64,000 nucleotides of DNA, taken from contig CBDCWI010000002.1 in the NCBI GenBank assembly GCA_965223325.1, positions 3,904,001-3,968,000 on the forward strand. The letters run 5' to 3'. Below the pieces are notes generated by a model. The model saw nothing but the letters and a program-made list of their open reading frames with translations, made no database searches and was not told the origin of the DNA. Positions 28,704-41,987 of this stretch are shown here, in pieces; within the stretch, counting starts at the first letter, position 1; each line of letters opens with the position of its first letter. The DNA is from Candidatus Multivoradales bacterium. GTDB lineage: Bacteria; Acidobacteriota; Thermoanaerobaculia; Multivoradales; Multivoraceae. Both the position numbers and the translations under genes were made by a program.

Positions 28704-30059
28704 ATGAAGCGCACGGTTCACCAATTCGCAGCCTGGAAGAGGAGCGCAGTTTGCGCGCTCGTCCTGTCGTGGGCAGGTCTGGGTGCGCTCTCGTCGCAAG
28801 TGGTGTGGTCGAACCGGGTCGAGGTCGAAGGTGCCTTTCAGCCTGACGGTGAGGTCTATCAGAAGGGCGAAGTGGTCTGGGAGCCGCGCATCCAGGCGCC
28901 TCTCGGTCGCCATTGCTCGGCAACCTTCGAAGCACGACTGCGCGCCGACACCGAAGACATCATCGAGCCCGGGGTTCCAGACCAGCGAACCCGCTCGGCT
29001 GCCAACGAACGCTGGTTCATTGGCACGCAGATCGATAGTGCGGTACGCGAAGCCTGGGTTCGCTGTGCGAGCGGTGGCTTCCAGATCGACGTCGGCAAGC
29101 AGCAGACCGTCTGGGGCAAGGCCGATGGCCTCAAACTGCTCGACGTGGTCAACCCACAGTCATTCCGCGAGTTCATCCTCGACGACTTCGCGGACTCGCG
29201 CATTCCACTGTGGACGGTGTCGGCAAGCTACTCCTTCGGTCCCAGCAGTCTGCAGGTGCTGTGGATTCCCGACACGACCTACCATGAGCTACCCGCGAGT
29301 GGCTCCCCGTTCGCGTTCACTTCGCCGCTTCTCGCACCGAGGGTGTCGACCGCCGTTCCGGTTGAGCTCCTCGCCGTTTCCAAGCCGGGCGATGCCTTCG
29401 ACGACGCGGACTGGGGGGCGCGGTTTGCGACCTTCCTGGGTGGGTGGGATCTCTCGGCGGTGTACCTGCATCACTACGATGATCTACCAGTTTTCCGTCA
29501 ACAGGTGGTTGCTGATGGGCTGGGCTCACGGGTTGTCGTCGAGCCGACCTACGAACGGACCGATCTCTACGGCGGGAGTTTCAGCAACGCTTTCGGCAAG
29601 TTGACCGTACGCGGCGAGATCGGTCTGTCGGACGACAAGGCCTTTACCTCGAACGATCTCTTCCACGCCCGTTCTGACTCCTTCGGCCTGGTTCGTTCCG
29701 ATGAGCTCGGCTGGGTCCTCGGACTCGACTGGTACGGCATGCCTCAGTCGATGCTGAGTTTTCAGTACTTCGAGAGTCGCGTCGACGACGACCTGCCCCT
29801 CGATCGCGAAACCGTCGAGAGGAACGTCACCGGCTTCTACCGCTGGTGGAGCCGCAGTGAGAAGCTCGAGGCGCGCTTGATGTGGATGCACAATCTCGAG
29901 CGCAACGACGGTCTCGTACGGCCGGAGGTCCGCTATCAGTGGTTGGACATGACCCGGCTATGGATCGGCTATGACCACTTCTACGGAACGCGCCTCGGGC
30001 TGTTTGGCCAGTTTCGTGATCAGAGCCGCCTACGCATGGGCCTCGGCCTGCAATGGTGA
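28704..30059 (+). CDS. DUF1302-like outer-membrane beta-barrel
   Basis: Signal peptide; VREAWV, VGKQQTVWGKADGLKLLDVVNP, SRIPLW, GLFGQFRDQSR; C-terminal Trp. Confidence 0.8.
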   Translation: MKRTVHQFAAWKRSAVCALVLSWAGLGALSSQVVWSNRVEVEGAFQPDGEVYQKGEVVWEPRIQAPLGRHCSATFEARLRADTEDIIEPGVPDQRTRSAANERWFIGTQIDSAVREAWVRCASGGFQIDVGKQQTVWGKADGLKLLDVVNPQSFREFILDDFADSRIPLWTVSASYSFGPSSLQVLWIPDTTYHELPASGSPFAFTSPLLAPRVSTAVPVELLAVSKPGDAFDDADWGARFATFLGGWDLSAVYLHHYDDLPVFRQQVVADGLGSRVVVEPTYERTDLYGGSFSNAFGKLTVRGEIGLSDDKAFTSNDLFHARSDSFGLVRSDELGWVLGLDWYGMPQSMLSFQYFESRVDDDLPLDRETVERNVTGFYRWWSRSEKLEARLMWMHNLERNDGLVRPEVRYQWLDMTRLWIGYDHFYGTRLGLFGQFRDQSRLRMGLGLQW

Positions 30060-30068
30060 GCAAGGGCC

Positions 30069-33000
30069 TCAGGGTTGTTCCAACGCCTCCTGCTGGAACA
30101 TGCCGGTTGATAGATCCGTGTCATAGGCGACGTCGCTGAAACGGAAGGTCGTCGAACCGCCGGTCGCGTGATTGATGCACTCGAGACGGTGCACGGTGTC
30201 GATGCCGTCGACCTTCCTGATGTCGTGAGCGGTGATGGTGCGCTCGAGCGTCTGGCCGGTCCAGTACTCGACTCGTCGAGTGAGCCAGGTCTCACTGTCG
30301 ACCCAGCGCGTCGCCCGCTCGTGACCGAGCACCTTGGCCAACCGGCGACTCTTCACCAGGCCGTCAACGACAATGCACTGGCAGTCGTCGAGGGTCTGCC
30401 AGCCGACGGTCTGCCAGTTGTAGTCATCGAGCTCGACCTTCATCTCGTTCTTGATGTTCTCGTAGGTGAAGTCGGTGCCAAGGAAAGACTCGCCGCGGTT
30501 GGAAGCAGAGATGCGCCGGACGCGCCGGTACTCCGGCAGGTAGAGCCACTGGTCGTCGGCTTTACCGTCGCCGTAGTCCCAGGTGAGAAACGCAGTGCCC
30601 CGAACGGAAACCGGCTCGACGTAGCGGATGAGGCTCTGCTTGCGGTCGCCGTCGTAGCGTCGGAACACGGATGCCTTGCGGTGACGCTCGCGCCCGCGGG
30701 CGTCACGGACAGTGATCTCTAGAGATTCGCGCAGAGTCTCGCCATCCGAGCGCGCATTGACGAGCTGGGCGACGCGTAGGCCCTCGATCTTTGTTCCCGG
30801 TGCGAGGGCGGAGTCGGCTTCGGTGGAGGTGCCACGCGAGTGGCCGGTGCCGAGGGCGACAGAGAGCCCGAGCAACAAAACGACCAGCGTCGCCGGGGAG
30901 CCGACCCCGGCCTGGGCGCGCCGTCTCGCCTCGAGCTGGCGCGCAATCGCGGCGGGGGCGCTTTCGCTGCGTTCCTTCTCTGGCACATGTTCGTGGAGCT
31001 CGGCTTCGTGAAGCGGCCAGCCGACCAGCCGCAAAAGGCTCGGAAGCAGGAAGAGGTCAGCGGCAAGCGCGACGACCAGGGTTATCGCGGTTGCCAGACC
31101 CATATGGGCGATCGGTTGAAAGTCCGAGAACAAGAGCACCAGAAAGCCGAGTCCGAGGCAGACAGTGGTCACCAGGAGCGCCGGGCCAACGCGTTCGTAG
31201 ATCGCGGAAAGCGCCTGCCGTGGGTGATGGTTCCCCTTACCGCCGAGATGACCGAGGACGTGGGCGGTGTCGTCGACGGCCAGGCCCAGCGCCAGGCAAC
31301 CAGTGATACTGGTGACGAAAGACAGCGGAATTCCGGTCCAACCCATCAGCCCGAGGCAGGTTGCGATCGGGACGACGTTCGGAATCATCGAGAGTAGACC
31401 CAGTTTGAACGAGCGCAGGGAGGCCATCATCAGGAGTGTGATGAGAGCCACGGCTACGGCCAGGCCACGCAGCATGTTGCGCACGATCCCGTCCATTGCT
31501 TTGGGAAACAAGAGCCAGGTACCGAGGACTTCGACATCCAGGTTCGCCGGTCGGGTCGGGGTCTCGGCAGCAAAGCCGAGCAACCGCTGGCGCAGATCGA
31601 GCACTGCCTTCGACGAGCGGCTGTCGACCTTGAGGAAGACGTTGAGCGCTGAGCGGTCGAAGTTGACGTAGTACTCGAAGTCTTCTGGGCTGCCGCTACT
31701 CTCGTAGAGCACCATGTACTGCGCGGCGAGTGCCGGAGAGGTGAAGTAGCGTCGTTCGCTGTCGGGCTCGCCGGGCGGTTCGGGGTTCATCGCGTCGTCG
31801 ATGAGCGCCAAGTAGTCGAGCAGTGAGACTGAGCGGGTGACGATCGGATCCGCCATTGCGGTTTCGATGGCGCCGTGCGCGAAACGCAGCACCGACGGGG
31901 CGAGGGCTCCTTCGCCCTCCTCGGTCGACAGAACCAGGTTGACCCATAACGAACCGTCGAAGCGGTCGCTGAGGAACCCATCGCTCAGGCGATGAAAGCT
32001 GTCGGCCTTCCAGTAGGTGATCGGGTCACTCTCGAGCCGCAAGCGAAAAACCCCGCCGACCACGACCGCGACGAGGAGCAGGGTGACCAGGACCGCTCGC
32101 CAGGGTCGCTCGGCTCGTTCCACGCCGTACTGGGCGATCTGCGAGAGCAGTTGGATCCGGCGCGGGGGTGGAGGCTCGAAGCCGAAAACCTGAGCCAGTG
32201 CGGGCAGCAGGAGGAGGCTGGCAGCCAGAGCTCCGAGAATCCCGACGGCGAGGCCGGCGCCGAGGTGCTTGAGCACCTCGATAGGCATCAAGGTCAGGGA
32301 CAGGAACCCAGCGCTGGTCGACAGAGCCGAGATCGTGCAAGGTCTTGCCAACCGCGCGACCAGACGTGCACCGGGTGACAGGTCGAAAAACGGATCCTCT
32401 GCTCCTGCGCTTCGGAGGAGGGCGAAAGCGTAGAGACCGTAGGCGCCGGCGGTGGCGACCAGGATGGTCGGCAGAGTCGCAGACACAGCGGTAAACGGTG
32501 CGCCAACCAGAGACAGCCAGGCCGTTGCCAGAACATTGGACCAGGCTGCCAACACGCCCACAAAAAGCACGACGCCCCAGTGCCTGAGGATCGTGACCGC
32601 GAGGATGAGGACCAACACCAGGGCAGCCGATGTCAGGACTCCGAGGTCGCGCAGGCCGATGCGGGTACTGTCGACCTCGGCCGCCGGGTAGCCACCAACC
32701 CAGGTCGCCCAGGGCGCGCGCTCGAGAATGCGCGCGGTATCCGTGACCACTTCCTGGTTGATCGCACCGCTCGCCCGATCACCCTCCAGGGTGGGAACGA
32801 TGAACATCGAGACGGCGCGGCGATCGTCCGCAATGAGGTTGCCGTCGACGAGACGATGGCCGTCGATTCGCGCCAGCAGTCGCTCGAAGGAGGCCGCGAG
32901 TTCTTCCGGGGTGGCCGTGCCGGCAAGGAGCTCCTCTCCCACCAGACCCGAGGTGTCGAGAAAGCCCTGCTCGTCGGCGCGCACGTCCTCGACGGAAGTC

Positions 33001-33311
33001 AGATCGATGACATCAGAAACGCTGGGTAGAGATTCGATCTCGCGACGGAGGGAGGCCAGGAGCGCCAGGTCGCTGGCGGTCAAAGGTCGCCCGAGGTCGA
33101 TGCCGACCATCAGCATCTCGTCGTTCTTGAACTCGGCCTTGATCTCCTGGTTGCGGGCGCGGTCGGGATCGTTCTGGAGCAGAAAGTAGTCCAGTCCGGG
33201 ATGGATCTGGATCTTCGTTGCCGGCACGAGACCGATTACGAACGCCAGCCCGAAGAGCAAGATGATCAGGCGAGGGTACGTCTGAACCAACTTCTGCAGA
33301 ACACTGATCAT
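30069..33311 (-). CDS. MMPL/RND transporter fused to a LolA-like lipoprotein-sorting domain
   Basis: Two MMPL repeats (SMIPNVVP, GLAVDDTAH), an internal hydrophobic segment, then VRGTAFL..DDQWLYLPEYRRVRRIS..FLGTDFTYE. ATG 33311 is used because the longer ORF overlaps the kinase. Confidence 0.85.
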   Translation of the reverse strand: MISVLQKLVQTYPRLIILLFGLAFVIGLVPATKIQIHPGLDYFLLQNDPDRARNQEIKAEFKNDEMLMVGIDLGRPLTASDLALLASLRREIESLPSVSDVIDLTSVEDVRADEQGFLDTSGLVGEELLAGTATPEELAASFERLLARIDGHRLVDGNLIADDRRAVSMFIVPTLEGDRASGAINQEVVTDTARILERAPWATWVGGYPAAEVDSTRIGLRDLGVLTSAALVLVLILAVTILRHWGVVLFVGVLAAWSNVLATAWLSLVGAPFTAVSATLPTILVATAGAYGLYAFALLRSAGAEDPFFDLSPGARLVARLARPCTISALSTSAGFLSLTLMPIEVLKHLGAGLAVGILGALAASLLLLPALAQVFGFEPPPPRRIQLLSQIAQYGVERAERPWRAVLVTLLLVAVVVGGVFRLRLESDPITYWKADSFHRLSDGFLSDRFDGSLWVNLVLSTEEGEGALAPSVLRFAHGAIETAMADPIVTRSVSLLDYLALIDDAMNPEPPGEPDSERRYFTSPALAAQYMVLYESSGSPEDFEYYVNFDRSALNVFLKVDSRSSKAVLDLRQRLLGFAAETPTRPANLDVEVLGTWLLFPKAMDGIVRNMLRGLAVAVALITLLMMASLRSFKLGLLSMIPNVVPIATCLGLMGWTGIPLSFVTSITGCLALGLAVDDTAHVLGHLGGKGNHHPRQALSAIYERVGPALLVTTVCLGLGFLVLLFSDFQPIAHMGLATAITLVVALAADLFLLPSLLRLVGWPLHEAELHEHVPEKERSESAPAAIARQLEARRRAQAGVGSPATLVVLLLGLSVALGTGHSRGTSTEADSALAPGTKIEGLRVAQLVNARSDGETLRESLEITVRDARGRERHRKASVFRRYDGDRKQSLIRYVEPVSVRGTAFLTWDYGDGKADDQWLYLPEYRRVRRISASNRGESFLGTDFTYENIKNEMKVELDDYNWQTVGWQTLDDCQCIVVDGLVKSRRLAKVLGHERATRWVDSETWLTRRVEYWTGQTLERTITAHDIRKVDGIDTVHRLECINHATGGSTTFRFSDVAYDTDLSTGMFQQEALEQP

Positions 33312-33336
33312 GGGTGCGGTTACTCGGATGGATGGG

Positions 33337-36102
33337 TCAAGAAGCGGTGTCGTGCCGGAGGTTGTTTTGCAGCGCGGCCTCAACCGCCGCTTGGTCCATC
33401 TCGTGGTCGAGCGGAATCGTGATGCGAAAAGTCGCACCGCCCAGGCGGCCGTTGGCGATGGCCTCGATCGTACCGCCGTGGGCGCGGACGAGGTTGCGTA
33501 CGGTAGCGAGGCCGAGGCCGGTGCTTCGTTTCCCTGAGTGGAAGGGCTCGAAGATGCTCGGTAGCCGCGCGACGGGAATGCCGGGGCCGTTGTCTTGAAT
33601 CTCGACGAGCAGAGTGCGCCCCTCGTCAGCTCCGGCCTGGTCGATCTGCGCCTCGAGTCTGACGGTGCGGGGTTCGTCCTCACCGGCCAGGGCGTCGCGG
33701 GCGTTGTGGATCAGGTTCTCGATGACTCGCGCCAGCGCCACCGTGTCGAGGCTTCCCCTGGCGCTCGCATCGATGGCGATCTCGAGCTCGAGGTCAATGG
33801 AGCGACGCTCCAACTCACCGCGCAGACCCTCTGCGACGTCTCGTAGAAGCTCGGCTACGGTGGTCTGTTCACGCGCCAGCTGGGGCGTGCCTCCGCGGGC
33901 GAAGTTGAGCATCTCTTCGGTCATCCGACCGAGTCGATCGACGGCGGTGCCGATTTGTTTGAGTGGCTCTGCGACCGCGTTGCCGTCTCCGTTCTCGGCC
34001 GAGCGCTCGGCGAAGTGGCCGGCCAACTCAGCGTAGCCCTTGACCACGGTGAGCGCGTTGCGCAGGTCGTGGGCGATGGCGCTCGACATCTGGCCAATCG
34101 CCGCAAGGCGCGTGTCGCGTTCAGAGAGCTGCTCCTCAGCGGCCTTGCGGCGCAACAACGCACCAACGCGAGCGACGAGTTCGCGGGGAACGAAAGGCTT
34201 CACGAGGTAGTCGTCGGCGCCGTACTCCAAGCCCTCGACAATGGCACCGGCGCCGGCGCGCGCGGTCACCATGATGATCGGGATGGAGGCCAGGGCGGAA
34301 TCGGCGCGGATCTCCTTGCACAGCTGTTCGCCGTCCATGCGCGGCATCATGACGTCCGAAACCACCAGGTCGATTCGCGCGCTTTGCAGTGCCTCGAGGG
34401 CCTCGACGCCGTCGGCTGCTCGCACGACGCGATACTTCTCGAGCAGCGCTCGTGCCATGAAGTGCCGAAGGTCCTGGTTGTCGTCGACCACCAGCACGAT
34501 CGGCGCGTCCTCGGGTGGTTGGTAGTCGGGTTGGTCCTCACCGGGCGGGCGCAGGGTGGTCGGCGCAACATCCGCGAGAGCAGTGTCGCGCAGTGCGCGG
34601 CGATACTCCTGGGCGGCGAGCGCCGAGCGTCGGGCCTCAGCCATGCGATCCTGGCGACGGCGAGGCTGGCTGCGCCGATCTTCGACATGCTGCTGACGGG
34701 CCGGCAGGGTGGCGCGAAACGTCGAGCCCACTCCCACTTCGGAGTGCACCACGAGGTCGCCGCCATGCAGGCGTGCCAGTTCGCGCGCGAGCGCCAGACC
34801 AACGCCCGTTCCTTCGTGGGTGCGCGCGCTCGAACTGTCGACCTGATAGAAGCGATCGAAGACCTTTTCGAGTTCGCTCTCTGGGATTCCTGAGCCGGTG
34901 TCTTCGACCTCGAAAACGACCTTCTCGGGTTCTTCATTGCGCACGCGGACGGTGATGTGGCCCTTCTTTGTGAACTTGAGGGCGTTCGAAACCAGGTTCG
35001 CCGCAATGACCCAGATCTTGTCGACGTCGAGTTCGGCAGGTCGGAGCTTCTCTTGCTCGAAGCGCAGCTCGAGCCCCCGGGACTCCGCCAGGGGCCGCGC
35101 CGACTGAACCACCTCTCCAATCAGCTCGCCGACATCGACTCTCTCTGTGGCCAGGTCAAGCGATCCAGATTCGAGCTTCGCGATGTCGAGCAGGGCATTG
35201 ACCTGTCGTAGCAGGCGGGTGGCGTTGGTGCGCATCGAGGCCAACAGCTCGCTGTGCCCTGGGTCGCTGATCTGGCCGCGCAGGGTGTCGATAGGGCCGA
35301 GAAGAAGCGTAAGCGGTGTTCGCAGCTCGTGACTGACGTTGGCGAAGAAGCGTGTCTTGGCTTCGTCGAGCGCGAGCAGGTCCTGGTTGGCCTTCTCGAG
35401 TTGCAGGCGCAAGGAGAGGTCGCGCCACAAGGTCCTCCTGGCAGCGAATGTTCCGAGGGCGGTGAATGCCGCTGCGCAGACGAGAAAGAAGAAGTGCGCC
35501 ACCATCTCGCGCGAGGTCCCGGCGCTGGGAATGGTGAGCGCCAGGTGGAGAACCGCGGTGGCGGTTCCGAAGGCGAGCATCAAGAGCGGGTGAATGGGCA
35601 TGGAGAGCCCCAGCCCACCGATGACCAGCATGATGCCGACGAAGTAGGTGCTCTGCCAGCCGGCCATCAGTGCGCCGAGGAGTGAGATCACCGCTGCGCA
35701 GAGTAGGCCGTTGCCAATGACCAGCTTCTCGGCCCAGCGCGCGGCACCAGGGCGTCGCACGATCAACCAGGCCACCAGGCACGAAGCGGCGACCCCCAGT
35801 CTCAGGCCCAGGGCGAGATAGGCGAGACGGGGTTCGATGACCACATCCAGAAACCAGAACGCGGCGAAGAGAAAGGCCGTCGCGCCCAGCAGGCGTCGAC
35901 CCCGGTCGCGCAGCAACGCTTCGAGCTCGCGATCGAACTCGCGTGCCAGGGAAGGCTGGCTATCGCCCACGGGATGGGTTCCCGTCCAAGAAGTATCCAA
36001 AACCGGCGGTCGCCCCGTCTCGGTATGTGTTGGGCAATGGCAAGAGAAGAGCGAGTTGTTGAAAATACTAGAGTTGTGCCGTTCTCCCAAGCCCGACGAC
36101 AT
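33337..36102 (-). CDS. Membrane hybrid histidine kinase: TM sensor-HisKA-HATPase-REC-HisKA-HATPase
   Basis: H-box 1 NVSHELRTPL, NLVSNALKFT, DTGSGI, GTGVGL; REC VVDD/SDVMMP/KPF; H-box 2 IAHDLRNAL, NLIHNARDA, DNGPGI, TGLGL. The true start may be ~36000. Confidence 0.92.
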   Translation of the reverse strand: MSSGLGERHNSSIFNNSLFSCHCPTHTETGRPPVLDTSWTGTHPVGDSQPSLAREFDRELEALLRDRGRRLLGATAFLFAAFWFLDVVIEPRLAYLALGLRLGVAASCLVAWLIVRRPGAARWAEKLVIGNGLLCAAVISLLGALMAGWQSTYFVGIMLVIGGLGLSMPIHPLLMLAFGTATAVLHLALTIPSAGTSREMVAHFFFLVCAAAFTALGTFAARRTLWRDLSLRLQLEKANQDLLALDEAKTRFFANVSHELRTPLTLLLGPIDTLRGQISDPGHSELLASMRTNATRLLRQVNALLDIAKLESGSLDLATERVDVGELIGEVVQSARPLAESRGLELRFEQEKLRPAELDVDKIWVIAANLVSNALKFTKKGHITVRVRNEEPEKVVFEVEDTGSGIPESELEKVFDRFYQVDSSSARTHEGTGVGLALARELARLHGGDLVVHSEVGVGSTFRATLPARQQHVEDRRSQPRRRQDRMAEARRSALAAQEYRRALRDTALADVAPTTLRPPGEDQPDYQPPEDAPIVLVVDDNQDLRHFMARALLEKYRVVRAADGVEALEALQSARIDLVVSDVMMPRMDGEQLCKEIRADSALASIPIIMVTARAGAGAIVEGLEYGADDYLVKPFVPRELVARVGALLRRKAAEEQLSERDTRLAAIGQMSSAIAHDLRNALTVVKGYAELAGHFAERSAENGDGNAVAEPLKQIGTAVDRLGRMTEEMLNFARGGTPQLAREQTTVAELLRDVAEGLRGELERRSIDLELEIAIDASARGSLDTVALARVIENLIHNARDALAGEDEPRTVRLEAQIDQAGADEGRTLLVEIQDNGPGIPVARLPSIFEPFHSGKRSTGLGLATVRNLVRAHGGTIEAIANGRLGGATFRITIPLDHEMDQAAVEAALQNNLRHDTAS

Positions 36103-36128
36103 GATTTCTTGCGAAACAGCGAGGGAGC

Positions 36129-39100
36129 CTACGAAGGGGCGTCCCAGCTGCCTCCCCAGCTGCCGAGCTTGACCGCGCGCCCGATCACGGCTGTAGCGGG
36201 GCTTCCCAGTCCCTCGAACAGGTTGACCCGTGCAAAACCTGCTTCATGCAGGAGGTCACGAAGCTCCTCGCGCCCAAAGAAGCGGAATCGGCCGTCTTCT
36301 TCGAGCTCGATGAGCCTGCTCATCATGTTGGCAAAGCCCCGCAGCGCTTCGAGTTGGTGGGCTGCCTCAGGGTCGCCCTTCTCGACTCGCGCGCGCAGCA
36401 GCTCACTTTCCTCGCGGTACTGCTTTGACGGATCCCAGTTGGGCTGTAGGGATGACACCACCAAAACGCCGCCCGGCCGCAGGATGCGATGCATCTCGCG
36501 GATGGCAACCAGGGGGTCGGCGAGGTAGGAAACCACGAGCGAGCAGCCGATCCGGTCGAGGCTTTCGTCCGGGAAGTCGAGTGTCGCGCCAGGGCGAGCA
36601 TCGGCGAAGCTGAGATGCTCGAACTCGAGGTCGAGCGCGGTGGTCGCCTTCTCGCGACCGGGCCGAAGGTCCGTTGGGAGCACTTTACCGTGGCAGAACC
36701 TGGCCGCTCGGCCGATCTCCTCGATGACGTCCAGCTCGGTGCGCTCGAGATCGGGGCAGATCGTGCTGAGGCGCGCGCGGGTGAGGGGAGCGCCGCGCAG
36801 TGCTTTGTGCAGCGCCTTGCCGTAACACTCCTGAATCCGTGCTGCGGTCAGTGCTTCGAGCCCCCCGATGCGACCGGCGAGCTCTTCGACACCGTACGCT
36901 CTTCCCTCGAGGAAATCCTCGATCGGTCGCAGGCGACTGACCTCGAGGTCGGCGTTTACCTGGAGGCAGGGAAACTCACCGAGCTTGCGGGCGATCCTGG
37001 TCTCTTCGACCTTCGTTGCGGTGCGCTCGAGCGCTTCGGGCACCAGGTCCAGAATCGTGTACGAAGCCGGAGCCTGATCCTCAGTGAGAGTGCTCAAGAT
37101 GGCTCGCGACAGGTTGCCCGTTCCGCACCCGAAATCGGCGAGGTCTTCATCAGGTTGTGGATCCAGGAGTCCGACCTGGTGTTCCAGGAACTGTGGATAG
37201 TCGGGGTGCTCGAGCAACACGTCGTAGGCCAGGTCGTCGCCCCCGGAGCCGAACAGGTGCTGGTGCCAGAAGGTTCGGGCATCTCCGAGTCTGTACCGCT
37301 TGACGCGCGCCCATTCGGCGCGTGATTGCTCGCCGAACTTGCGCAGGTCCGGGTCGGTCGCCGGTCGATCTTCGCCGAAGATGTGTTTTGCCACCGACTC
37401 ACTGACCAGCTTGAAGACCTCGATCGCCTCGGGCCCCTCTTTCAAAACATGACCGGTGGCGCACTCGAAGACCTCGCGGATGCCGCTTCCCGGTGCCTCG
37501 AGCATCTGCTGGACGCGGCTGCGGGTGACCCAGTGGTCGTAGGTGCCGACGATCCAGGTGATCGGCGTGGTGATGGCTGCGATGTCCCGGCGCGCCTCGG
37601 CCAGGTAGGCCAGGTCGAGTTCCGCGGCCTTCGCGAACCAGTTGTCGACCAACACCGGGCGCCCATGGACGTGCATGCGTTCGGGTGCCTCCCCCTTTTC
37701 CCACAGCGGAAAGAGGTCGAGGCCCGCGAAGTAGTTGCGCATCATGTCCTGGGCATCGGGACAGCCGAAGGGTGCAACCCAGGCGTCGATTCGTGGCCCA
37801 GCGTCGTCCACCACCCGGCGCGCTGCGATCGCCGAGAAGGATACCGAGACCAGGGCACACTTCTGGGGGTTGAATCGCTGTTCGACGTAGCGCAGCGAAG
37901 CGTTGATGTCGTCGACCAGGTTTGACAGGTCCCACTCCAGGTAGGGCTGGTTCTGTTCAACCAACTTCGGGTTCATGGTGCTTTCACCGACGAGGTGACA
38001 GAGATCGAAACGAAGGACAACGACACGCCGACCTCCGCGTCCGAGGTCGTCGACCAGCGTTCGGGCCTGCAAGCCGAAGACCTCCTTGCGTTTCAACAGC
38101 GCGGGCGCAACGAGAACGGCGACATCGGGTCTGAGACTGGGGTCACTTGTATCGAAGTTGGCATCGATGAGACCGACGACGGACTCGCCGCGCCGATTGC
38201 GGTACTGCACGACTTCGACGCCGCTTTCGATCCGCGACCGTTGGCGCCCGAGAACTTGCGACACGCGGCTGCGCAGGAGGGCAAAGGTGCGCCGTAGGCG
38301 ATTACCCCGGGTGGACTCGAGCGAACGGCTGCTGCGGTCTTCGAAGACCGAAGGTTGACCGGGTTCATCGTCGAAGTGCAGTCCAACGCGCAGTGTCTGG
38401 TCGTCGTAGCGCGTCAAGTAGCGGATGGTCGCTCCGGAGACCGGTCGCTCGTAGCCGTTCTGGCTGACCATGAAGTGCGGCAGCCGCGTCCCGACCAGGA
38501 ACGGCGTGTTCAGAGGAACGCACATCGAGGCGCCGCCTTCGGCAAGGTCGAGGAGCTCGAAGCGCGTGAAGCCGCCGGTGAGGTGGGGAGCGCGGAACTC
38601 ACAGTAGCCCGCCGCCTCGCTCCGACGGTTGGTCCGGCGTTCGGTGACGTAGAGCCGTTGCGGTGCGAGCAACACGGGGCGTTGCCCAGGTACGAGCAGA
38701 ACGCCCTCGAAGGCGTAGAACAGGCTACCGTCTGAGAACACGATGTAGACGACACGGCTGGTCGTGTCCTCGACCAGCTCGACGCCGTCGAGGGTGAGGG
38801 TCGAGCGCGTCGGGTCGTCGTTGAGTGTCAAGCCAGCGAGTGTCGCCTCGTCGATCTGGAACCCGCGTTGAGCCAGGACGCTGATCGGGTAGCGGCCGGC
38901 AATGGCGGTCCGGAGGATCGCTTCGACTCCCTCTGGATCGGCAACCGGCAACAGGTTGCTGGGTAACAGGTCGCCTAGTCGTTGCTGCACGCGCACGATG
39001 GCGTCGTCCATCTCGAGAAAGCCGGCGTGACTTCGCAGGCGTGCACGGTCGCGCGCCGCGAGCTCTTCGAAGCGCACGCCGAAACCAGCCGGGCTGGTCC

Positions 39101-39389
39101 GCACCACACGTGCCGCGACCTCGATAGGTCGCGAGTCGGTGGGCAGGGTCAACCGCAAGGCGAGCCTTTCGCCCGGCTCGAGTTTCGTCGTTGTACGAAC
39201 GAAGGCTCCATCGGCACTCAGGTCGGAGGCGATTGCTGGTCCAGCCAGCTGCTCGCCCGAGTCGATGCGCACTGCGATATAGGTCGCCCGCCGAGGTGCA
39301 AGGCGGGCTTCCGACTCGCTGCTGCGAGCAGTCGGTGAAGGCATGGCGGTTTGTGGCCCGGGCTGCGAAGGCAGCCAGCTGGTCGTCAC
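36129..39389 (-). CDS. PilZ / YcgR-N-like / PilZ / LuxD-type thioesterase / SAM methyltransferase fusion
   Basis: PilZ1 RLAPR+DLSADG; PilZ2 RRTNRR+DLAEGG; LRFDLCHLVGES, VSVSFSA, GTYDHWV, TGHVL; DFGCGTGN, ILDL, HRILRPGG; GGAG RBS before the GTG. Confidence 0.8.
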   Translation of the reverse strand: MTTSWLPSQPGPQTAMPSPTARSSESEARLAPRRATYIAVRIDSGEQLAGPAIASDLSADGAFVRTTTKLEPGERLALRLTLPTDSRPIEVAARVVRTSPAGFGVRFEELAARDRARLRSHAGFLEMDDAIVRVQQRLGDLLPSNLLPVADPEGVEAILRTAIAGRYPISVLAQRGFQIDEATLAGLTLNDDPTRSTLTLDGVELVEDTTSRVVYIVFSDGSLFYAFEGVLLVPGQRPVLLAPQRLYVTERRTNRRSEAAGYCEFRAPHLTGGFTRFELLDLAEGGASMCVPLNTPFLVGTRLPHFMVSQNGYERPVSGATIRYLTRYDDQTLRVGLHFDDEPGQPSVFEDRSSRSLESTRGNRLRRTFALLRSRVSQVLGRQRSRIESGVEVVQYRNRRGESVVGLIDANFDTSDPSLRPDVAVLVAPALLKRKEVFGLQARTLVDDLGRGGRRVVVLRFDLCHLVGESTMNPKLVEQNQPYLEWDLSNLVDDINASLRYVEQRFNPQKCALVSVSFSAIAARRVVDDAGPRIDAWVAPFGCPDAQDMMRNYFAGLDLFPLWEKGEAPERMHVHGRPVLVDNWFAKAAELDLAYLAEARRDIAAITTPITWIVGTYDHWVTRSRVQQMLEAPGSGIREVFECATGHVLKEGPEAIEVFKLVSESVAKHIFGEDRPATDPDLRKFGEQSRAEWARVKRYRLGDARTFWHQHLFGSGGDDLAYDVLLEHPDYPQFLEHQVGLLDPQPDEDLADFGCGTGNLSRAILSTLTEDQAPASYTILDLVPEALERTATKVEETRIARKLGEFPCLQVNADLEVSRLRPIEDFLEGRAYGVEELAGRIGGLEALTAARIQECYGKALHKALRGAPLTRARLSTICPDLERTELDVIEEIGRAARFCHGKVLPTDLRPGREKATTALDLEFEHLSFADARPGATLDFPDESLDRIGCSLVVSYLADPLVAIREMHRILRPGGVLVVSSLQPNWDPSKQYREESELLRARVEKGDPEAAHQLEALRGFANMMSRLIELEEDGRFRFFGREELRDLLHEAGFARVNLFEGLGSPATAVIGRAVKLGSWGGSWDAPS

Positions 39390-39714
39390 GGCGGTGCTCC
39401 GGAGAAGTACCTCGTTTGCGAACTAGAACTTGCGACCAGGGGTGTGTACCTGGCGGGCCTGAGAAGGAGTGAACGTTGAGGAAAACGCGAATTATATGGG
39501 AGGCAGTCGCTCGTTGCTCTATGTCACGTTGTCTGTCGCTCTATGCTGAGCTGCGACTTCTCGTCCAGGCCTGGAATCGACCTTCGGGCGAGGAATCGAA
39601 GATGCGGGTTGTGCTATATTGGACCCTAGTTTTCCGAGTTTCTAGTACTCCTGAGAGTGCGCTGAACGAGCTGGAAAGCAACACCAAACCGCCGTGTTCG
39701 TAGCGGAGACCTGA

Positions 39715-40032
39715 ATGACGACCGAACCGCAAGAAGTGCTCGAGTCCAACATGCCCGAGAGTCTCGAAGTCGAGATCTACGGCGGGACGTACCGAGTACG
39801 TGGCGGTGACGCCGAGGAGCTCCGGGAGCTGGCGGGCTACGTAGACAAGAAAATGAAGGAGGTCGCGACACATCTCGCGACAGTCGATACGACGAAGATT
39901 GCGATCCTCGCCGCGCTGAATATTGCCGATGAACTGCGCAGCGGGAGTCGAGAGAGCCAGCCCGGGGTCGAGCGTCAGCTCGACCTGATGGCCGGTGCTT
40001 TAGAAGAGGCGCTCGGAGAATCGGTGGGCTAG
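39715..40032 (+). CDS. zapA: Cell division protein ZapA
   Basis: VEIYGGTY, LAGYVDKKMKEV, KIAILAALNIADEL; lies upstream of 6S RNA and rny. Confidence 0.9.
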   Translation: MTTEPQEVLESNMPESLEVEIYGGTYRVRGGDAEELRELAGYVDKKMKEVATHLATVDTTKIAILAALNIADELRSGSRESQPGVERQLDLMAGALEEALGESVG

Positions 40033-40109
40033 AGGGAACCGGGAGAATCGAGATCCCCTCAGGCTCCGAATGATGAGTGCGAGCGCCCAATACGAAGATC
40101 GAAGAATGT

Positions 40110-40299
40110 TGCACCCCCTGCGCGGTACGTGATGGCCCAACCACTGTTAGAACCTACGCTTCTTTTCCGGGAGTCCTATATCCACGTGGCCTGTGCCAGC
40201 CTCGCTCGTACGAGGACGCTGATGGCTCGAGGCGCGGACACCCACCTGGTCATGCCAGGTTCTAAGCCGGACGGGTCACACGGTCGGGCGGGGGGTGCC
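40110..40299 (+). ncRNA. ssrS: 6S RNA
   Basis: Canonical zapA-ssrS-rny position. Rod pairing GCACCCCCTGC(40111)/GCGGGGGGTGC(40288) and TTAGAACCT/AGGTTCTAA flanking a central bubble. Ends are approximate. Confidence 0.8.
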
Positions 40300-40421
40300 A
40301 CCCTTCGTTTCGCTGGCAGCGGTCGCCAACTTGCCGCGACCGCCGGGGGTGTGAACCCCTAAGGGAAGTCGGTTCTCTCGCCGAAGGTGTCGTGCCTCTT
40401 GCCATATAGGCGGAGGTACCA

Positions 40422-41987
40422 ATGGACACGAATGTTGTACTAGCTGCGCTGGCGCTAGTGGCCGCTGCGTCCATGCCTGTGGTTTGGCTCCTGTTCGTGC
40501 GACGTGCTGCACGGCAGATCACCATCCAGGCGCGCCGCAAGGCGACGCGGCTTCTCGAAGAGGCCGACCGCGAGCGCGACGCCAAGCGTCGCGAGGACGA
40601 GCTCGCGGCACGGGAAAGAACGCTGCAGCGCCGCGCTGAGTTCGAAGCGGAGGCTTCGAAACACCGCGCCGAACTCGATGAGCGGGCTCGCGAACTGGCC
40701 GACGAGCGCCGCGAGTACACGGAGCAGGCGGCGCAACTCGAGCGTCGACTCCTCGAACAGGAAGAAAGAGAACAGGCACTCGCTGCGACAGAGGCGAATG
40801 TCGAGGCCAGAGGGCAGCGTTACGCGAGGCTGTTGGAGGACGAACGCCACCGGCTCGAGCGCGTCGCCGGGCTGACCGCTCAGCAAGCGCGCGAAGAGCT
40901 CGTTCGCAGCCTCGAGGCCGAGGCACGCATCGAAGCCGCTCACCTGATCAAGAAGATCGAAGACGAAGCGCGTGAGCGCGCTCTTCCCGAAGCGCAACGG
41001 ATCATCTCGATGGCGATCGAGCGCTCGGCAGCGGACTACATCAATGAAACCACGGTTTCGGTGGTGATGTTGCCCAGCGACGACATGAAGGGTCGCATCA
41101 TCGGCCGTGAGGGACGCAACATCCGCGCGCTCGAAATGGCGACGGGCGTCGACTTGATCGTCGACGATACCCCCGAGGCCGTGATTGTTTCGGGCTTCGA
41201 TCCCTACCGGCGGGAGATCGCTCGCGTCAGCCTCGAGCGCTTGATCGCCGATGGGCGCATTCACCCTGCCCGGATCGAAGAGGTGACCGAGAAGACGCGC
41301 GCCGAATTCGAGCAACGAATTCAGAGTGACGGCCAGGAGGCGCTGCTCGAGCTCAACCTTTCGAATGTGCACGCTGAGTTGGTGAAGCTGCTGGGGCGGT
41401 TGCGCTATCGCACCAGCTACGGTCAGAACGTCTTGCAACACAGCAAGGAGGTCGCCTTTCTGGCGGCCAACATGGCGGGCGAGCTGCGTGCTGACGTGCA
41501 CGTTGCCAAACGTGCGGGCCTCTTCCATGACATTGGCAAGGCGGTTGATCGCGAGATGGAAGGCACCCACCTCGAGGTGGGGATCGACCTCTTGCGCAAG
41601 TACGGCGAAACGGAAGAAGTTGTGCACGCCATGGCGTGTCACCACGGTGACTACGATCCTGAGACCGTGGAGGCTGTCCTGGTGACTTCTGCCGATGCGC
41701 TGTCGGCCGCGCGCCCAGGCGCGCGGCGCGAGATTCTCGAGACCTATATGCGACGACTCGAGAAGCTCGAGGAGCTCGCCTCGAGTTTCGACGGTGTCAA
41801 CAAGAGCTACGCGATTCAGGCCGGTCGCGAGGTCCGCATCATCGTCGACTGCGACAAGCTGAGCGACGAGGAGGCCATTTGGCTGTCGAAGGATGTCGCC
41901 AAGAAGATCGAGAAGGAACTGACCTATCCCGGGCATATCAAGGTCACCGTGATTCGGGAGTCGCGAGCGGTTGACTATGCCCGCTGA
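40422..41987 (+). CDS. rny: Ribonuclease Y
   Basis: N-terminal TM, coiled coil, KH ([13 protein letters not shown]), HD (HSKEVA, HDIGK), [12 protein letters not shown]. Confidence 0.97.

What the first reader, a model, noticed from the sequence alone, without database searches (positions are those of the whole stretch)
36129..39389. LuxD-type thioesterase outside a lux operon, fused to two PilZ domains and a methyltransferase
Residues ~390-670 track Vibrio LuxD motif by motif (LuxD recalled from memory): LRFDLCHLVGES ~ FRYDSLHHVGLS, LVSVSFSAIAA ~ LIAASLSARVA, GTYDHWV ~ ANNDDWV, TGHVLKE ~ SSHDLGE. This gives an intact predicted triad S517/D618/H647, matching LuxD S114/D211/H241. No luxCABE genes are nearby. 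Both PilZ domains keep RxxxR (PilZ1 DLSADG, PilZ2 variant DLAEGG). The methyltransferase has an insertion of over 100 aa after motif II that may bind a lipid substrate.
Basis: partly seen in the sequence, partly recalled or inferred. Interest (0 to 1): 0.85.

Follow-up and report, generated by a model that had tools for sequence, protein, structure and literature searches.

The report
c-di-GMP-gated LuxD-like acyl hydrolase–methyltransferase
This gene encodes a large, conserved but unstudied enzyme that joins two c-di-GMP-sensing PilZ modules to a LuxD-like fatty-acyl hydrolase and a methyltransferase, always sits beside a membrane sensor kinase, and probably makes or modifies an exported lipid under second-messenger control.

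Summary
Window 36129-39389 (-) encodes a 1086-aa cytoplasmic protein. Its parts are PilZ, a YcgR-like PilZN-PilZ pair, an alpha/beta hydrolase, and a class I SAM methyltransferase with a conserved ~125-aa insert.

The family is large (294 clusters at E<=1e-30), and sources name it only generically. A six-helix hybrid histidine kinase lies next to the gene in 40 of 40 assessable loci. An HD-GYP c-di-GMP phosphodiesterase is present in 18 of 49 loci and an MMPL lipid exporter in 17 of 49, this window included.

Best reading (0.45): a c-di-GMP-gated enzyme frees a fatty acid from an acyl thioester and methylates it. The lipid is exported and sensed by the partner kinase, as in PhcB/PhcS or Rpf circuits. 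No activity has been tested. I found no publication on this fusion.

The parts
36129..39389 (-). Whole gene, 1086 aa: PilZ / PilZN-PilZ / LuxD-like hydrolase / SAM methyltransferase. No predicted membrane helix.
   Evidence: 135 homologues at E<=1e-3, most of them full length.
39030..39305 (-). PilZ domain 1 (res 29-120), with R29xxxR33 and D56-L-S58-A-D-G61
   Evidence: Pfam PF07238 69.2 bits against a cut-off of 22.5, two stretches. Motif positions. S58 invariant, and R29, R33, R34 and G61 at >=90% in A1.
38355..39017 (-). YcgR-like module (res 125-345): PilZN-like domain plus PilZ domain 2, with R251-R252-xxx-R256 and D281-L-A-E-G-G286
   Evidence: Family profile against PDB sequences hits YpfA at 241-337 (E 0.0014) and YcgR/MrkH at 149-286 (E 0.16-0.18). 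Foldseek on the full model hits MrkH, YcgR and PP4397 at E 6e-11 to 6e-9. R251, R252, R256 and G286 are invariant. RRxxxR is kept in 21 of 21 short-subfamily members.
38235..38354 (-). Low-confidence linker (res 346-385)
   Evidence: pLDDT below 50 for 342-385
37311..38234 (-). LuxD-like alpha/beta hydrolase or acyltransferase domain (res 386-693)
   Evidence: AlphaFold pLDDT 90.8. 1THT is the top match in Foldseek and VIA-align. The domain alone scores 28.5 bits on Abhydrolase_6, above the 26.3 cut-off.
37839..37841 (-). Ser517 codon: predicted nucleophile, in the elbow S515-V-S517-F-S519
   Evidence: Invariant. Codon checked.
37536..37538 (-). Asp618 codon: predicted triad acid
37449..37451 (-). 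His647 codon: predicted triad base
36165..37292 (-). Class I SAM-dependent methyltransferase domain (res 700-1075). Motif I is DFGCGTG at 752-758, and D781 ends strand 2.
   Evidence: Methyltransf_11, _12, _23, _25 and _31 all score above their cut-offs. G754, C755, G756, T757, G758 and D781 are invariant.
36570..36944 (-). Conserved helical insert in the methyltransferase (res ~816-940), between strands 3 and 4
   Evidence: Split Pfam matches. Helices at high pLDDT. Invariant R819, F826, G829, R840, G843, H861, G866 and R897. The insert is absent from the ~800-850-aa subfamily.
33337..36102 (-). Partner gene, 26 nt downstream: hybrid histidine kinase with about 6 membrane helices (res 70-222), then HisKA-HATPase, REC, and a second HisKA-HATPase
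   Evidence: An orthologue lies next to the enzyme gene in 40 of 40 assessable loci.
30069..33308 (-). MMPL/RND (HAE3-like) transporter fused to a LolA-like domain. The likely start is at 33308, 28 nt after the kinase stop.
   Evidence: An MMPL gene lies next to the enzyme gene in 17 of 49 loci.
28704..30059 (+). Convergent DUF1302 gene. That this family forms outer-membrane barrels is my recollection. It probably belongs with the transporter.
   Evidence: The arrangement is the same in the same-genus genome G001.

Best explanation
The gene encodes a cytoplasmic, second-messenger-gated lipid enzyme.

Proposed steps (all inferred; none was assayed):
1. c-di-GMP binds the RxxxR and D/NxSxxG sites of the N-terminal PilZ and the YcgR-like PilZN-PilZ module. 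This switches the catalytic core on or off.
2. [quoted passage not shown] It then releases the free acid, as LuxD does.
3. The fused SAM methyltransferase methylates that product. The simplest chemistry is carboxyl O-methylation, which would give a fatty acid methyl ester.
4. The hydrophobic product leaves through the adjacent MMPL-LolA-like transporter and DUF1302 protein.
5. The neighbouring six-helix hybrid kinase senses the product, or the state of the membrane, inside the bilayer.
6. In most relatives the kinase controls an HD-GYP c-di-GMP phosphodiesterase, either fused to it or encoded next door. That would feed back on the PilZ gate. In this genome the HD-GYP partner is not in the locus.

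What is shown: the domain make-up, the invariant catalytic and binding motifs, LuxD as the nearest solved fold, and the gene neighbourhoods.
For: Domains: Pfam and AlphaFold models.

LuxD likeness:
- PF02273 scores over its cut-off in relatives: the L004 ORF at 35.5 bits, and 5 of 44 sampled family representatives. Eleven of those 44 match at E<=0.01.
- Five PilZ-less 563-584-aa proteins score 80-92 bits on PF02273. One of them, P0280, aligns with the window protein over both catalytic domains. That is 29% identity over 392-758 (E 1e-23) and 37% over 864-1074.

Invariant residues: the triad and the SAM motif. RRxxxR is kept in 21 of 21 short-subfamily members.

Lipid context:
- MMPL transporter adjacent in 17 of 49 loci.
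- A long-chain-fatty-acid-CoA-ligase-like gene and a B12 radical-SAM gene lie between enzyme and kinase in L002-L004. The same two genes follow the enzyme in L069, whose contig ends before any kinase.

Signalling context:
- Kinase adjacent in 40 of 40 assessable loci, with a conserved membrane sensor region.
- HD-GYP in 18 loci.

Precedents:
- LuxD forms an acyl-Ser114 intermediate, and a partner protein speeds release of the acid (PMC6279958, passages).
- PhcB methyltransferase makes 3-hydroxy fatty acid methyl ester signals that the kinase PhcS senses (abstracts).
- A thioesterase plus a carboxyl methyltransferase gives FAME in engineered E. coli (PMC4823748, abstract).
Against: - The window protein itself does not match the LuxD HMMs.
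- Nothing tells O-methylation from N-, C- or S-methylation. The methyltransferase matches only generic families.
- No PhcB-named protein appeared among 21 shorter homologues.
- By my own reasoning, an MMPL/LolA-like/DUF1302 route looks heavier than a small volatile ester should need.
- PilZ2 has Ala in place of the canonical Ser (DLAEGG).
- The HD-GYP partner is missing from this window and from G001.
- Flanks beyond the core module vary.
Confidence: 0.45

Rival explanations
1. Membrane-lipid remodelling effector. The hydrolase acts as a (lyso)phospholipase or monoacylglycerol lipase on membrane lipids. The methyltransferase modifies a lipid head group or acyl chain, for example N-methylating phosphatidylethanolamine or making cyclopropane-type changes. 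The kinase senses the membrane state and adjusts the enzyme through c-di-GMP. This would be homeostasis rather than cell-to-cell signalling.
For: - The family profile hits a phosphatidylethanolamine N-methyltransferase (8ys9, E 5.7e-5) and a depositor-named cyclopropane-fatty-acyl-phospholipid synthase entry (3ccf, E 1.3e-4).
- JGI labels some relatives 'lysophospholipase'.
- The kinase sensor is buried in the membrane, and MMPL transporters carry bulky lipids.
- L058 has a fatty acid desaturase gene directly upstream.
Against: - LuxD stands 3.7 Z units above the lipases and covers more residues.
- The PDB methyltransferase hits are generic and cover only the SAM-binding segments.
- The protein has no membrane helix.
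- Fatty-acid-CoA-ligase-like neighbours in 4 loci fit free fatty acid chemistry.
Confidence: 0.22
2. BioC/BioH-like methyl ester masking. The methyltransferase methylates the free carboxyl of a malonyl- or dicarboxyl-ACP, so that fatty acid synthase extends it. The hydrolase later removes the methyl ester or cleaves the thioester, releasing a dicarboxylate or its monoester.
For: - BioC is the best specific NCBIfam match (TIGR02072, E 4.3e-10).
- JGI names several relatives 'pimeloyl-ACP methyl ester carboxylesterase'.
- The conserved insert carries three invariant arginines, R819, R840 and R897. By my inference it could dock acidic ACP.
- On-line methyl esterification has a polyketide precedent (PMC8302727, abstract).
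Against: - The BioC score is 39.8 bits against a cut-off of 184.95, and it covers only 935-982.
- The JGI names are generic COG labels.
- No biotin or polyketide genes lie in the module.
- This reading explains neither the kinase nor the MMPL partners.
Confidence: 0.1
3. Protein methylation and demethylation device. This would be a CheR/CheB-like or LCMT/PME-1-like pair fused in one chain. It would write and erase carboxyl methyl esters on the partner kinase or another protein, as an adaptation system under c-di-GMP control.
For: - The enzyme is strictly adjacent to one kinase (40 of 40 assessable loci).
- PCMT-type Pfam matches appear in 12 of 31 family members at E<=1.
- From my own knowledge, PME-1 is an alpha/beta hydrolase and LCMT-1 is a class I methyltransferase with a lid insert.
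- MapZ shows that PilZ proteins can control a methyltransferase, CheR1 (bioRxiv 2020.02.11.943704, passages).
Against: - The PCMT matches are weak (best E 1.6e-4) and lie on the generic SAM fold.
- No PME-1 or CheB entry is among the 50 VIA-align rows shown.
- The MMPL, fatty-acid-CoA-ligase-like and radical-SAM neighbours point to small-molecule chemistry.
Confidence: 0.08

Closest known systems
LuxD, myristoyl-ACP thioesterase/acyltransferase of Vibrio harveyi (PDB 1THT; Pfam PF02273 Acyl_transf_2)
   Different: Only 15-16% identity. The window protein itself gets no PF02273 or NCBIfam LuxD match. There is no luxCABE context. The domain is fused to PilZ modules and a methyltransferase rather than working with LuxE and LuxC.
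PhcB-PhcS-PhcR quorum sensing of Ralstonia (methyl 3-hydroxymyristate or 3-hydroxypalmitate)
   Same: A SAM methyltransferase that makes a fatty acid methyl ester signal is encoded next to its membrane sensor kinase (abstracts; PMC6989110 passages). From recall only: PhcR is a response regulator with a kinase-like output, which resembles the kinase-REC-kinase order seen here.
   Different: Homology to PhcB could not be tested, because I had no PhcB sequence. No PhcB-named hit appeared. The papers I read describe no PilZ or hydrolase domain in PhcB. Here c-di-GMP would gate the synthase directly.
Rpf/DSF system of Xanthomonas (RpfF, RpfB, RpfC, RpfG)
   Same: A fatty-acid signal, a hybrid membrane kinase, a REC-HD-GYP c-di-GMP phosphodiesterase and a fatty acyl-CoA ligase occur in one cluster (search listing and abstracts). 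RpfF has acyl-ACP thioesterase activity (PMC13660987, abstract). The same cast of parts appears in relatives of this locus.
   Different: By the PMC13660987 abstract, RpfF pairs enoyl-ACP dehydratase and thioesterase activities in one active site; that it is crotonase-fold with no methyltransferase or PilZ is my recollection. Here the messenger would feed back on the synthase itself. No sequence relationship was tested.
PilZ-gated enzymes and effectors (BcsA cellulose synthase, YcgR, MrkH, PP4397)
   Same: Canonical PilZ with RxxxR and D/NxSxxG, plus a YcgR-like two-domain module. The idea that c-di-GMP binding gates an attached catalytic domain also matches BcsA (bioRxiv 814665, passage on PilZ packing against the glycosyltransferase).
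   Different: The output is a hydrolase-methyltransferase pair. That combination is not mentioned in the two PilZ survey preprints I searched for the words methyltransferase, hydrolase, and esterase or enzymatic.
BioC/BioH (malonyl-ACP O-methyltransferase and pimeloyl-ACP methyl ester esterase)
   Same: A class I methyltransferase and an alpha/beta hydrolase acting on acyl-ACP carboxyl or ester groups. BioC is the best specific NCBIfam match.
   Different: The score is far below the cut-off (39.8 against 184.95 bits). There is no biotin context. BioC and BioH are, as far as I recall, not fused to PilZ.

Membership tests
LuxD / Acyl_transf_2 (Pfam PF02273) | Match to the family HMM above the curated cut-off (20.3 bits) | tested here: not met
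   The window protein has no match at E<=1. The domain alone has none at E<=10. A six-frame scan of the own genome found none at this locus. Relatives do pass: the L004 ORF at 35.5 bits, 5 of 44 family representatives, and five PilZ-less relatives at 80-92 bits.
LuxD / Acyl_transf_2 (Pfam PF02273) | Alpha/beta hydrolase fold closest to the LuxD structure | tested here: met
LuxD / Acyl_transf_2 (Pfam PF02273) | Ser-Asp-His catalytic triad | tested here: met
   S517, D618 and H647 are invariant in 31 of 31, 61 of 61 and 7 of 7 sequences. They sit at the canonical loops of the model.
LuxD / Acyl_transf_2 (Pfam PF02273) | Works within a luxCDABE operon with LuxE and LuxC | tested here: not met
   Neighbours are a kinase, MMPL, DUF1302 and RNase Y. 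The adjacent LuxC- and LuxE-family pair lies about 104 kb away, outside the window. No Bac_luciferase match falls in the window.
LuxD / Acyl_transf_2 (Pfam PF02273) | Acyl-ACP/CoA acyltransferase-thioesterase activity | not testable with these tools
   Needs enzyme assays.
NCBIfam LuxD equivalog (NF052253) | Score above 420 bits | tested here: not met
   No match for the window protein at E<=1. The bridging relative P0280 scores 88.8 bits.
PilZ c-di-GMP receptor (PF07238) | HMM match above cut-off | tested here: met
   69.2 bits against 22.5, in two stretches. All 31 of 31 family members match.
PilZ c-di-GMP receptor (PF07238) | [quoted passage not shown] | tested here: met
   PilZ1 has R29xxxR33 and D56-L-S-A-D-G61. 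PilZ2 has R251-R252-xxx-R256. PilZ2's second motif is DLAEGG, with Ala in place of Ser. That position varies among S, A, G and T in the family and is mostly Ser in the short subfamily.
PilZ c-di-GMP receptor (PF07238) | Binds c-di-GMP | not testable with these tools
   Needs ITC or DRaCALA.
YcgR-like PilZN-PilZ module | Two-domain fold like YcgR, MrkH or PP4397 | tested here: inconclusive
   Foldseek gives E 6e-11 to 6e-9, but TM is only 0.31-0.40 and rmsd is high. Profile hits are YpfA at E 0.0014 and YcgR at E 0.16. No Pfam PilZN family matched at E<=1.
Class I SAM-dependent methyltransferase | Family HMMs, glycine-rich motif I, and an acidic residue at the end of strand 2 | tested here: met
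   Methyltransf_11 (49.2 bits), _23, _12, _25 and _31 all score above their cut-offs. DFGCGTG 752-758 and D781 are invariant.
BioC malonyl-ACP O-methyltransferase (TIGR02072) | Score above 184.95 bits | tested here: not met
   39.8 bits; the best stretch covers only 935-982.
PhcB-type fatty acid methyl ester synthase | Sequence homology to PhcB | not tested
   I could not obtain a PhcB sequence with the tools. No PhcB-named protein was among the 21 shorter homologues of the methyltransferase domain. The resemblance is functional and contextual only.

The most novel reading that the evidence does not exclude
This family is the signal synthase of an undescribed lipid-based cell-cell signalling circuit. 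c-di-GMP directly gates production of a fatty acid methyl ester (or related lipid) autoinducer. An MMPL transporter exports it. A dedicated six-helix hybrid kinase senses it. The kinase drives an HD-GYP phosphodiesterase that resets c-di-GMP. That would close a loop between quorum sensing and second-messenger signalling within one three- or four-gene module, found in several phyla.
Probability: 0.25. Interest if true: 0.9.

Novelty: new variant of a known kind. Interest (0 to 1): 0.72.

Why it matters
PilZ domains are the commonest c-di-GMP receptors. The enzymes they are known to gate directly, as far as I recall, are mostly polysaccharide synthases. This would add lipid chemistry to the outputs that c-di-GMP controls directly.

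The family is large and sources name it only generically:
- 294 clusters at 50% identity with E<=1e-30.
- 34 of 301 sampled genomes in one phylum.

It comes with a fixed sensor-kinase partner and frequent HD-GYP and MMPL partners. That pattern suggests a self-contained circuit linking a lipid product, a membrane sensor and c-di-GMP turnover. Such a link is known in outline from Rpf/DSF, but with quite different enzymes.

The prediction is cheap to test. Express one gene and look for methyl esters by GC-MS, with and without c-di-GMP. A natural fused thioesterase-methyltransferase would also interest people who make fatty acid methyl esters in microbes.

Tried and rejected
- Direct sequence link to LuxD. 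phmmer of the hydrolase domain against PDB sequences gave 0 hits at E<=10. The family profile gave no hydrolase among the 60 rows shown, out of 97 hits. The link had to come from fold and bridging relatives.
- Closest solved relatives of the methyltransferase. Foldseek with the full-length model listed only hydrolase, peptidase and PilZ entries in the rows shown. The ESM Atlas look-alikes of residues 700-1086 were generic methyltransferases. The substrate class of the methyltransferase, and the fold and role of its insert, stay open.
- PhcB homology. No PhcB-named protein appeared. This search relies on a word index, so a distant relative would be missed.
- Plasmid carriage. tblastn of residues 385-1086 against 72,556 plasmids found nothing.
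- Faster divergence of the enzyme-kinase pair than of its flanks, as a sign of signal-receptor co-evolution. Enzyme and kinase are both 55% identical between G000 and G001, against 70-75% for RNase Y and YmdB. That difference is not striking, so I dropped the idea.
- Promoter and terminator scan of 29800-40500. It found 0 promoter-like sites, and 7 terminator-like sites against 6.4 expected. This is uninformative.
- Conserved biosynthetic genes beyond the core module. The 24 flanking ORFs I scanned from six metagenome loci were varied.
- Earlier scan notes by sequence. None were found.
- Literature. Searches, and term look-ups in two PilZ survey preprints, found no description of a PilZ-hydrolase-methyltransferase or LuxD-methyltransferase fusion. 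Supplements of those bioRxiv preprints were not seen and might list such architectures.


Full report
**The gene**

Window 36129-39389 on the minus strand is one open frame of 1086 codons starting at GTG. An ATG at codon 16 is an alternative start. The protein has no hydrophobic segment long enough for a membrane helix. It is clearly a real gene. A word-indexed search of 5.8 billion proteins gave 135 homologues at E<=1e-3. Most are 1050-1100 aa and cover 95-99% of the query at 39-56% identity. They come mainly from Thermoanaerobaculia-labelled metagenome bins, with some labelled Myxococcales, Thermodesulfobacteriota and Planctomycetota. Their only names are 'PilZ domain-containing protein', 'methyltransferase domain-containing protein' or JGI's generic COG labels.

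**Domain anatomy**

Pfam finds the following:
- PilZ, 69.2 bits in two stretches.
- A weak alpha/beta hydrolase match (Abhydrolase_6). It scores 24.2 bits in the whole protein and 28.5 bits, above the 26.3 cut-off, for the domain alone.
- Five class I methyltransferase families above their cut-offs, with matches split into 745-800 and 921-1053.

A profile of 31 family members searched against PDB sequences hit YpfA over positions 241-337 and YcgR/MrkH over 149-286. The full-length AlphaFold model (pLDDT 79.1, pTM 0.71) matched MrkH, YcgR and PP4397 in Foldseek at E 6e-11 to 6e-9, though with low TM-scores.

I therefore read the N-terminal third as a single PilZ (29-120) followed by a YcgR-like PilZN-PilZ pair (about 125-345). 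This second assignment is less certain. A disordered linker (346-385) leads to the hydrolase (386-693) and then the methyltransferase (700-1075). The methyltransferase carries a helical insert of about 125 residues between strands 3 and 4. The insert is modelled at pLDDT 86-96 and holds eight invariant residues, three of them arginines and one a histidine.

Every quoted motif is at the stated position. S517, D618 and H647 are invariant in all three alignments. That is 31 of 31 sequences, 61 of 61, and 7 of 7, the last set including homologues only 26-31% identical. In the domain model (pLDDT 90.8, pTM 0.92) they occupy the canonical nucleophile elbow and the loops after the last two strands. 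The elbow reads S-V-S517-F-S, a small-x-Ser-x-small pattern without glycines.

PilZ1 has R29xxxR33 and DLSADG. PilZ2 has R251-R252-xxx-R256, all invariant, and DLAEGG, where the usual Ser is Ala. That position varies among S, A, G and T in the family.

There are no lux genes in the window. The genome's only LuxC- and LuxE-family matches at E<=0.01 lie outside the window, the adjacent pair about 104 kb from the gene. None of its 18 luciferase-family matches is in the window.

**Is the hydrolase LuxD-like?**

By the family HMM, the window protein fails. It has no PF02273 match at E<=1. The domain alone has none at E<=10, and a six-frame scan of the genome finds none at this locus. It has no NCBIfam LuxD match either.

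Relatives, however, bridge the gap:
- A 1174-aa homologue in locus L004 scores 35.5 bits on PF02273, against a cut-off of 20.3.
- Of 44 family representatives that I picked from the 150 listed by the profile search, 11 match PF02273 at E<=0.01 and 5 exceed the cut-off. No other hydrolase family reaches its own cut-off in them.
- Five PilZ-less proteins of 563-584 aa score 80-92 bits on PF02273 and carry a homologous methyltransferase.
- One of these, P0280, aligns with the window protein over both catalytic domains. That is 29% identity over 392-758 (E 1e-23) and 37% over 864-1074. P0280 also matches NCBIfam's LuxD model at 88.8 bits, far below the equivalog cut-off of 420.

So the domain is a divergent offshoot of the LuxD family, not a LuxD orthologue. 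The LuxD-like domain plus methyltransferase is an evolutionary unit that exists with and without PilZ.

**Size and spread of the family**

A profile of seven hydrolase domains was scored against 1.84 billion cluster representatives. It found 712 proteins at E<=1e-3, 493 at E<=1e-10 and 294 at E<=1e-30. The 150 listed proteins fall into three groups:
- A long class of about 1050-1200 aa, with two PilZ and the methyltransferase insert.
- A short class of about 800-850 aa, with one PilZ and no insert.
- Fragments.

Two of the sampled long proteins have a receiver domain in front of a PilZ domain. The RRxxxR motif of the YcgR-like PilZ is kept in 21 of 21 short-class members I aligned, and D/NxSxxG in most of them.

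The distribution is patchy:
- 3 of 61 genomes among the window's relatives, at E<=1e-20.
- 5 of 301 in a sample of its phylum, at E<=1e-30.
- 34 of 301 in the phylum of locus L005's genome, at E<=1e-25 with the profile.

**Neighbourhood**

In the window the gene is followed by two genes on the same strand. After 26 nt comes a hybrid histidine kinase. It has about six membrane helices (res 70-222), then HisKA-HATPase, a receiver domain and a second HisKA-HATPase. After 28 more nt comes an MMPL/HAE3-type RND transporter fused to a LolA-like domain. A DUF1302 gene converges on them. RNase Y and YmdB lie upstream on the other strand.

I examined 49 loci in all:
- The window and its same-genus relative G001.
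- Five loci from species-representative genomes.
- Sixteen metagenome contigs.
- Six loci from searches among the window's relatives and its own phylum.
- Twenty loci from the other phylum.

L052/L053 and L058/L059 are near-duplicates. The results are:
- An orthologous kinase lies next to the enzyme gene, or within three genes on the same strand, in 40 of 40 loci that have enough DNA on that side. The other 9 loci end too soon to tell.
- The kinase's membrane region shares invariant residues from this window to the 30%-identical loci.
- An HD-GYP c-di-GMP phosphodiesterase belongs to the module in 18 loci. In 12 it is a REC-HD-GYP gene directly upstream. In 6 it is fused to the kinase's C-terminus. 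I did not find it in the window, G001, L005, L058, L059, or (at 90 bits or more) the 20 loci of the other phylum.
- An MMPL gene is adjacent in 17 loci: the window, G001, L005 and 14 of those 20.
- In four loci a long-chain-fatty-acid-CoA-ligase-like gene and a B12 radical-SAM gene follow the enzyme.
- Beyond this core the flanks vary.

**How it most likely works**

Shown here: the domain order, the invariant catalytic and ligand-binding motifs, LuxD as the nearest fold, and the fixed kinase partner with frequent HD-GYP and MMPL partners.

Inferred: c-di-GMP binds the PilZ modules and gates the catalytic core. [quoted passage not shown] LuxD does this, and its release step is speeded by a partner protein (PMC6279958, passages). 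The fused methyltransferase methylates the product, most simply to a fatty acid methyl ester. The lipid is exported by the MMPL route and sensed in the membrane by the kinase. In most relatives the kinase controls HD-GYP and so the c-di-GMP that gates the enzyme.

The logic has three parallels:
- PhcB/PhcS, a methyltransferase-made 3-hydroxy fatty acid methyl ester and its kinase (abstracts; passages).
- Rpf/DSF, with a fatty-acid signal, a hybrid kinase, REC-HD-GYP and an acyl-CoA ligase (listing and abstracts).
- The engineered thioesterase plus carboxyl methyltransferase route to FAME (abstract).

I put this at 0.45.

The main rival, at 0.22, is a membrane-lipid remodelling effector under the same control. 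BioC/BioH-like ester masking (0.10) and protein methylation/demethylation (0.08) are less likely. The remaining probability covers chemistry I have not thought of.

The evidence against the main reading is stated in full in the Best explanation section. In short:
- No activity data exist.
- The methyltransferase's substrate class is unknown.
- An MMPL/LolA-like/DUF1302 route seems heavy for a small ester.
- PilZ2 lacks the canonical Ser.
- This genome lacks the local HD-GYP.

**Novelty**

All the parts are known kinds. The combination, and the family, are not described in anything I could find. Searches for PilZ with methyltransferase and hydrolase, and for LuxD with methyltransferase, returned nothing relevant. 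Two PilZ survey preprints mention methyltransferases only as CheR partners; I did not see their supplements.

Another first-stage note of this scan, on an overlapping stretch of the same genome (e1-6746379), is titled as a c-di-GMP-gated synthase, sensor kinase and MMPL exporter operon. I saw only its title, after I had recorded the same idea. It is not independent evidence.

I rate this a new variant of a known kind, with interest 0.72.

Noticed in passing
own genome G000:C2:4046923-4048595 (outside the window, about 104 kb from the gene): Adjacent LuxC-family (PF05893, 103.2 bits) and LuxE-family (PF04443, 37.6 bits) genes. This is an acyl-protein synthetase/reductase pair with no luciferase match listed beside it; the nearest of the 18 Bac_luciferase matches ends about 29 kb away. 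Whether it works with the LuxD-like domain is unknown.
   Followed up: no
window 28704-33308: An MMPL/HAE3 transporter fused to a LolA-like domain (a DUF1329-like region also matches) converges on a DUF1302 gene. This looks like an envelope-spanning lipid export set. G001 has the same order, but there the tblastn match is broken between the MMPL and LolA-like parts, and the MMPL ORF I scanned is only 792 aa.
   Followed up: partly
window 30069-33683: The longest ORF for the transporter begins 375 nt upstream of the likely start. It overlaps the end of the kinase gene with an Arg/Ser/Pro-rich stretch of 125 residues. The Met at 33308 is the probable start.
   Followed up: partly
proteins P0238 and P0242: These family members have an N-terminal receiver (REC) domain in front of a PilZ domain. 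Phosphorylation may therefore replace or add to c-di-GMP as the input.
   Followed up: no
loci L005 and L101-L116: A short subfamily of about 800-850 aa has one PilZ and a methyltransferase without the insert. It is usually arranged as enzyme-MMPL-kinase, or with MMPL divergent upstream. It is present in about a tenth of sampled genomes of that phylum.
   Followed up: partly
L002 12240-15217; L003 12240-15211; L004 12178-14864; L069 2-2560: A fatty-acid-CoA-ligase-like gene and a B12-binding radical-SAM gene follow the enzyme gene; in L002-L004 they lie between it and the kinase-HD-GYP gene, while L069's contig ends first. The radical-SAM gene's best NCBIfam match is HpnJ, far below its cut-off. 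They may tailor the product in these lineages.
   Followed up: partly
L058 7538-8629 (-) and 5138-6223 (+): A fatty acid desaturase gene lies directly upstream of the enzyme gene, divergently. An acetyl-CoA carboxylase carboxyltransferase-like gene is nearby.
   Followed up: no
L054 17558-18418 (+): A small cNMP-binding plus PilZ protein is encoded about 3 kb downstream of the kinase.
   Followed up: no
window 39390-40421: About 1 kb without a convincing gene lies between the enzyme gene and the divergent RNase Y gene. The two ORFs there (39626-40144 and 40262-40720, minus strand) have no Pfam match, and their translations are rich in Arg, Ser and Ala. They are probably not genes.
   Followed up: partly
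hydrolase domain, residues 540-548 (window 37746-37772): The motif PFGCPDAQD, with invariant C543, D545, Q547 and D548 in the long Thermoanaerobaculia-type subfamily, is not kept in the spirochaete-labelled or PilZ-less relatives. Its role is unexplained.
   Followed up: no
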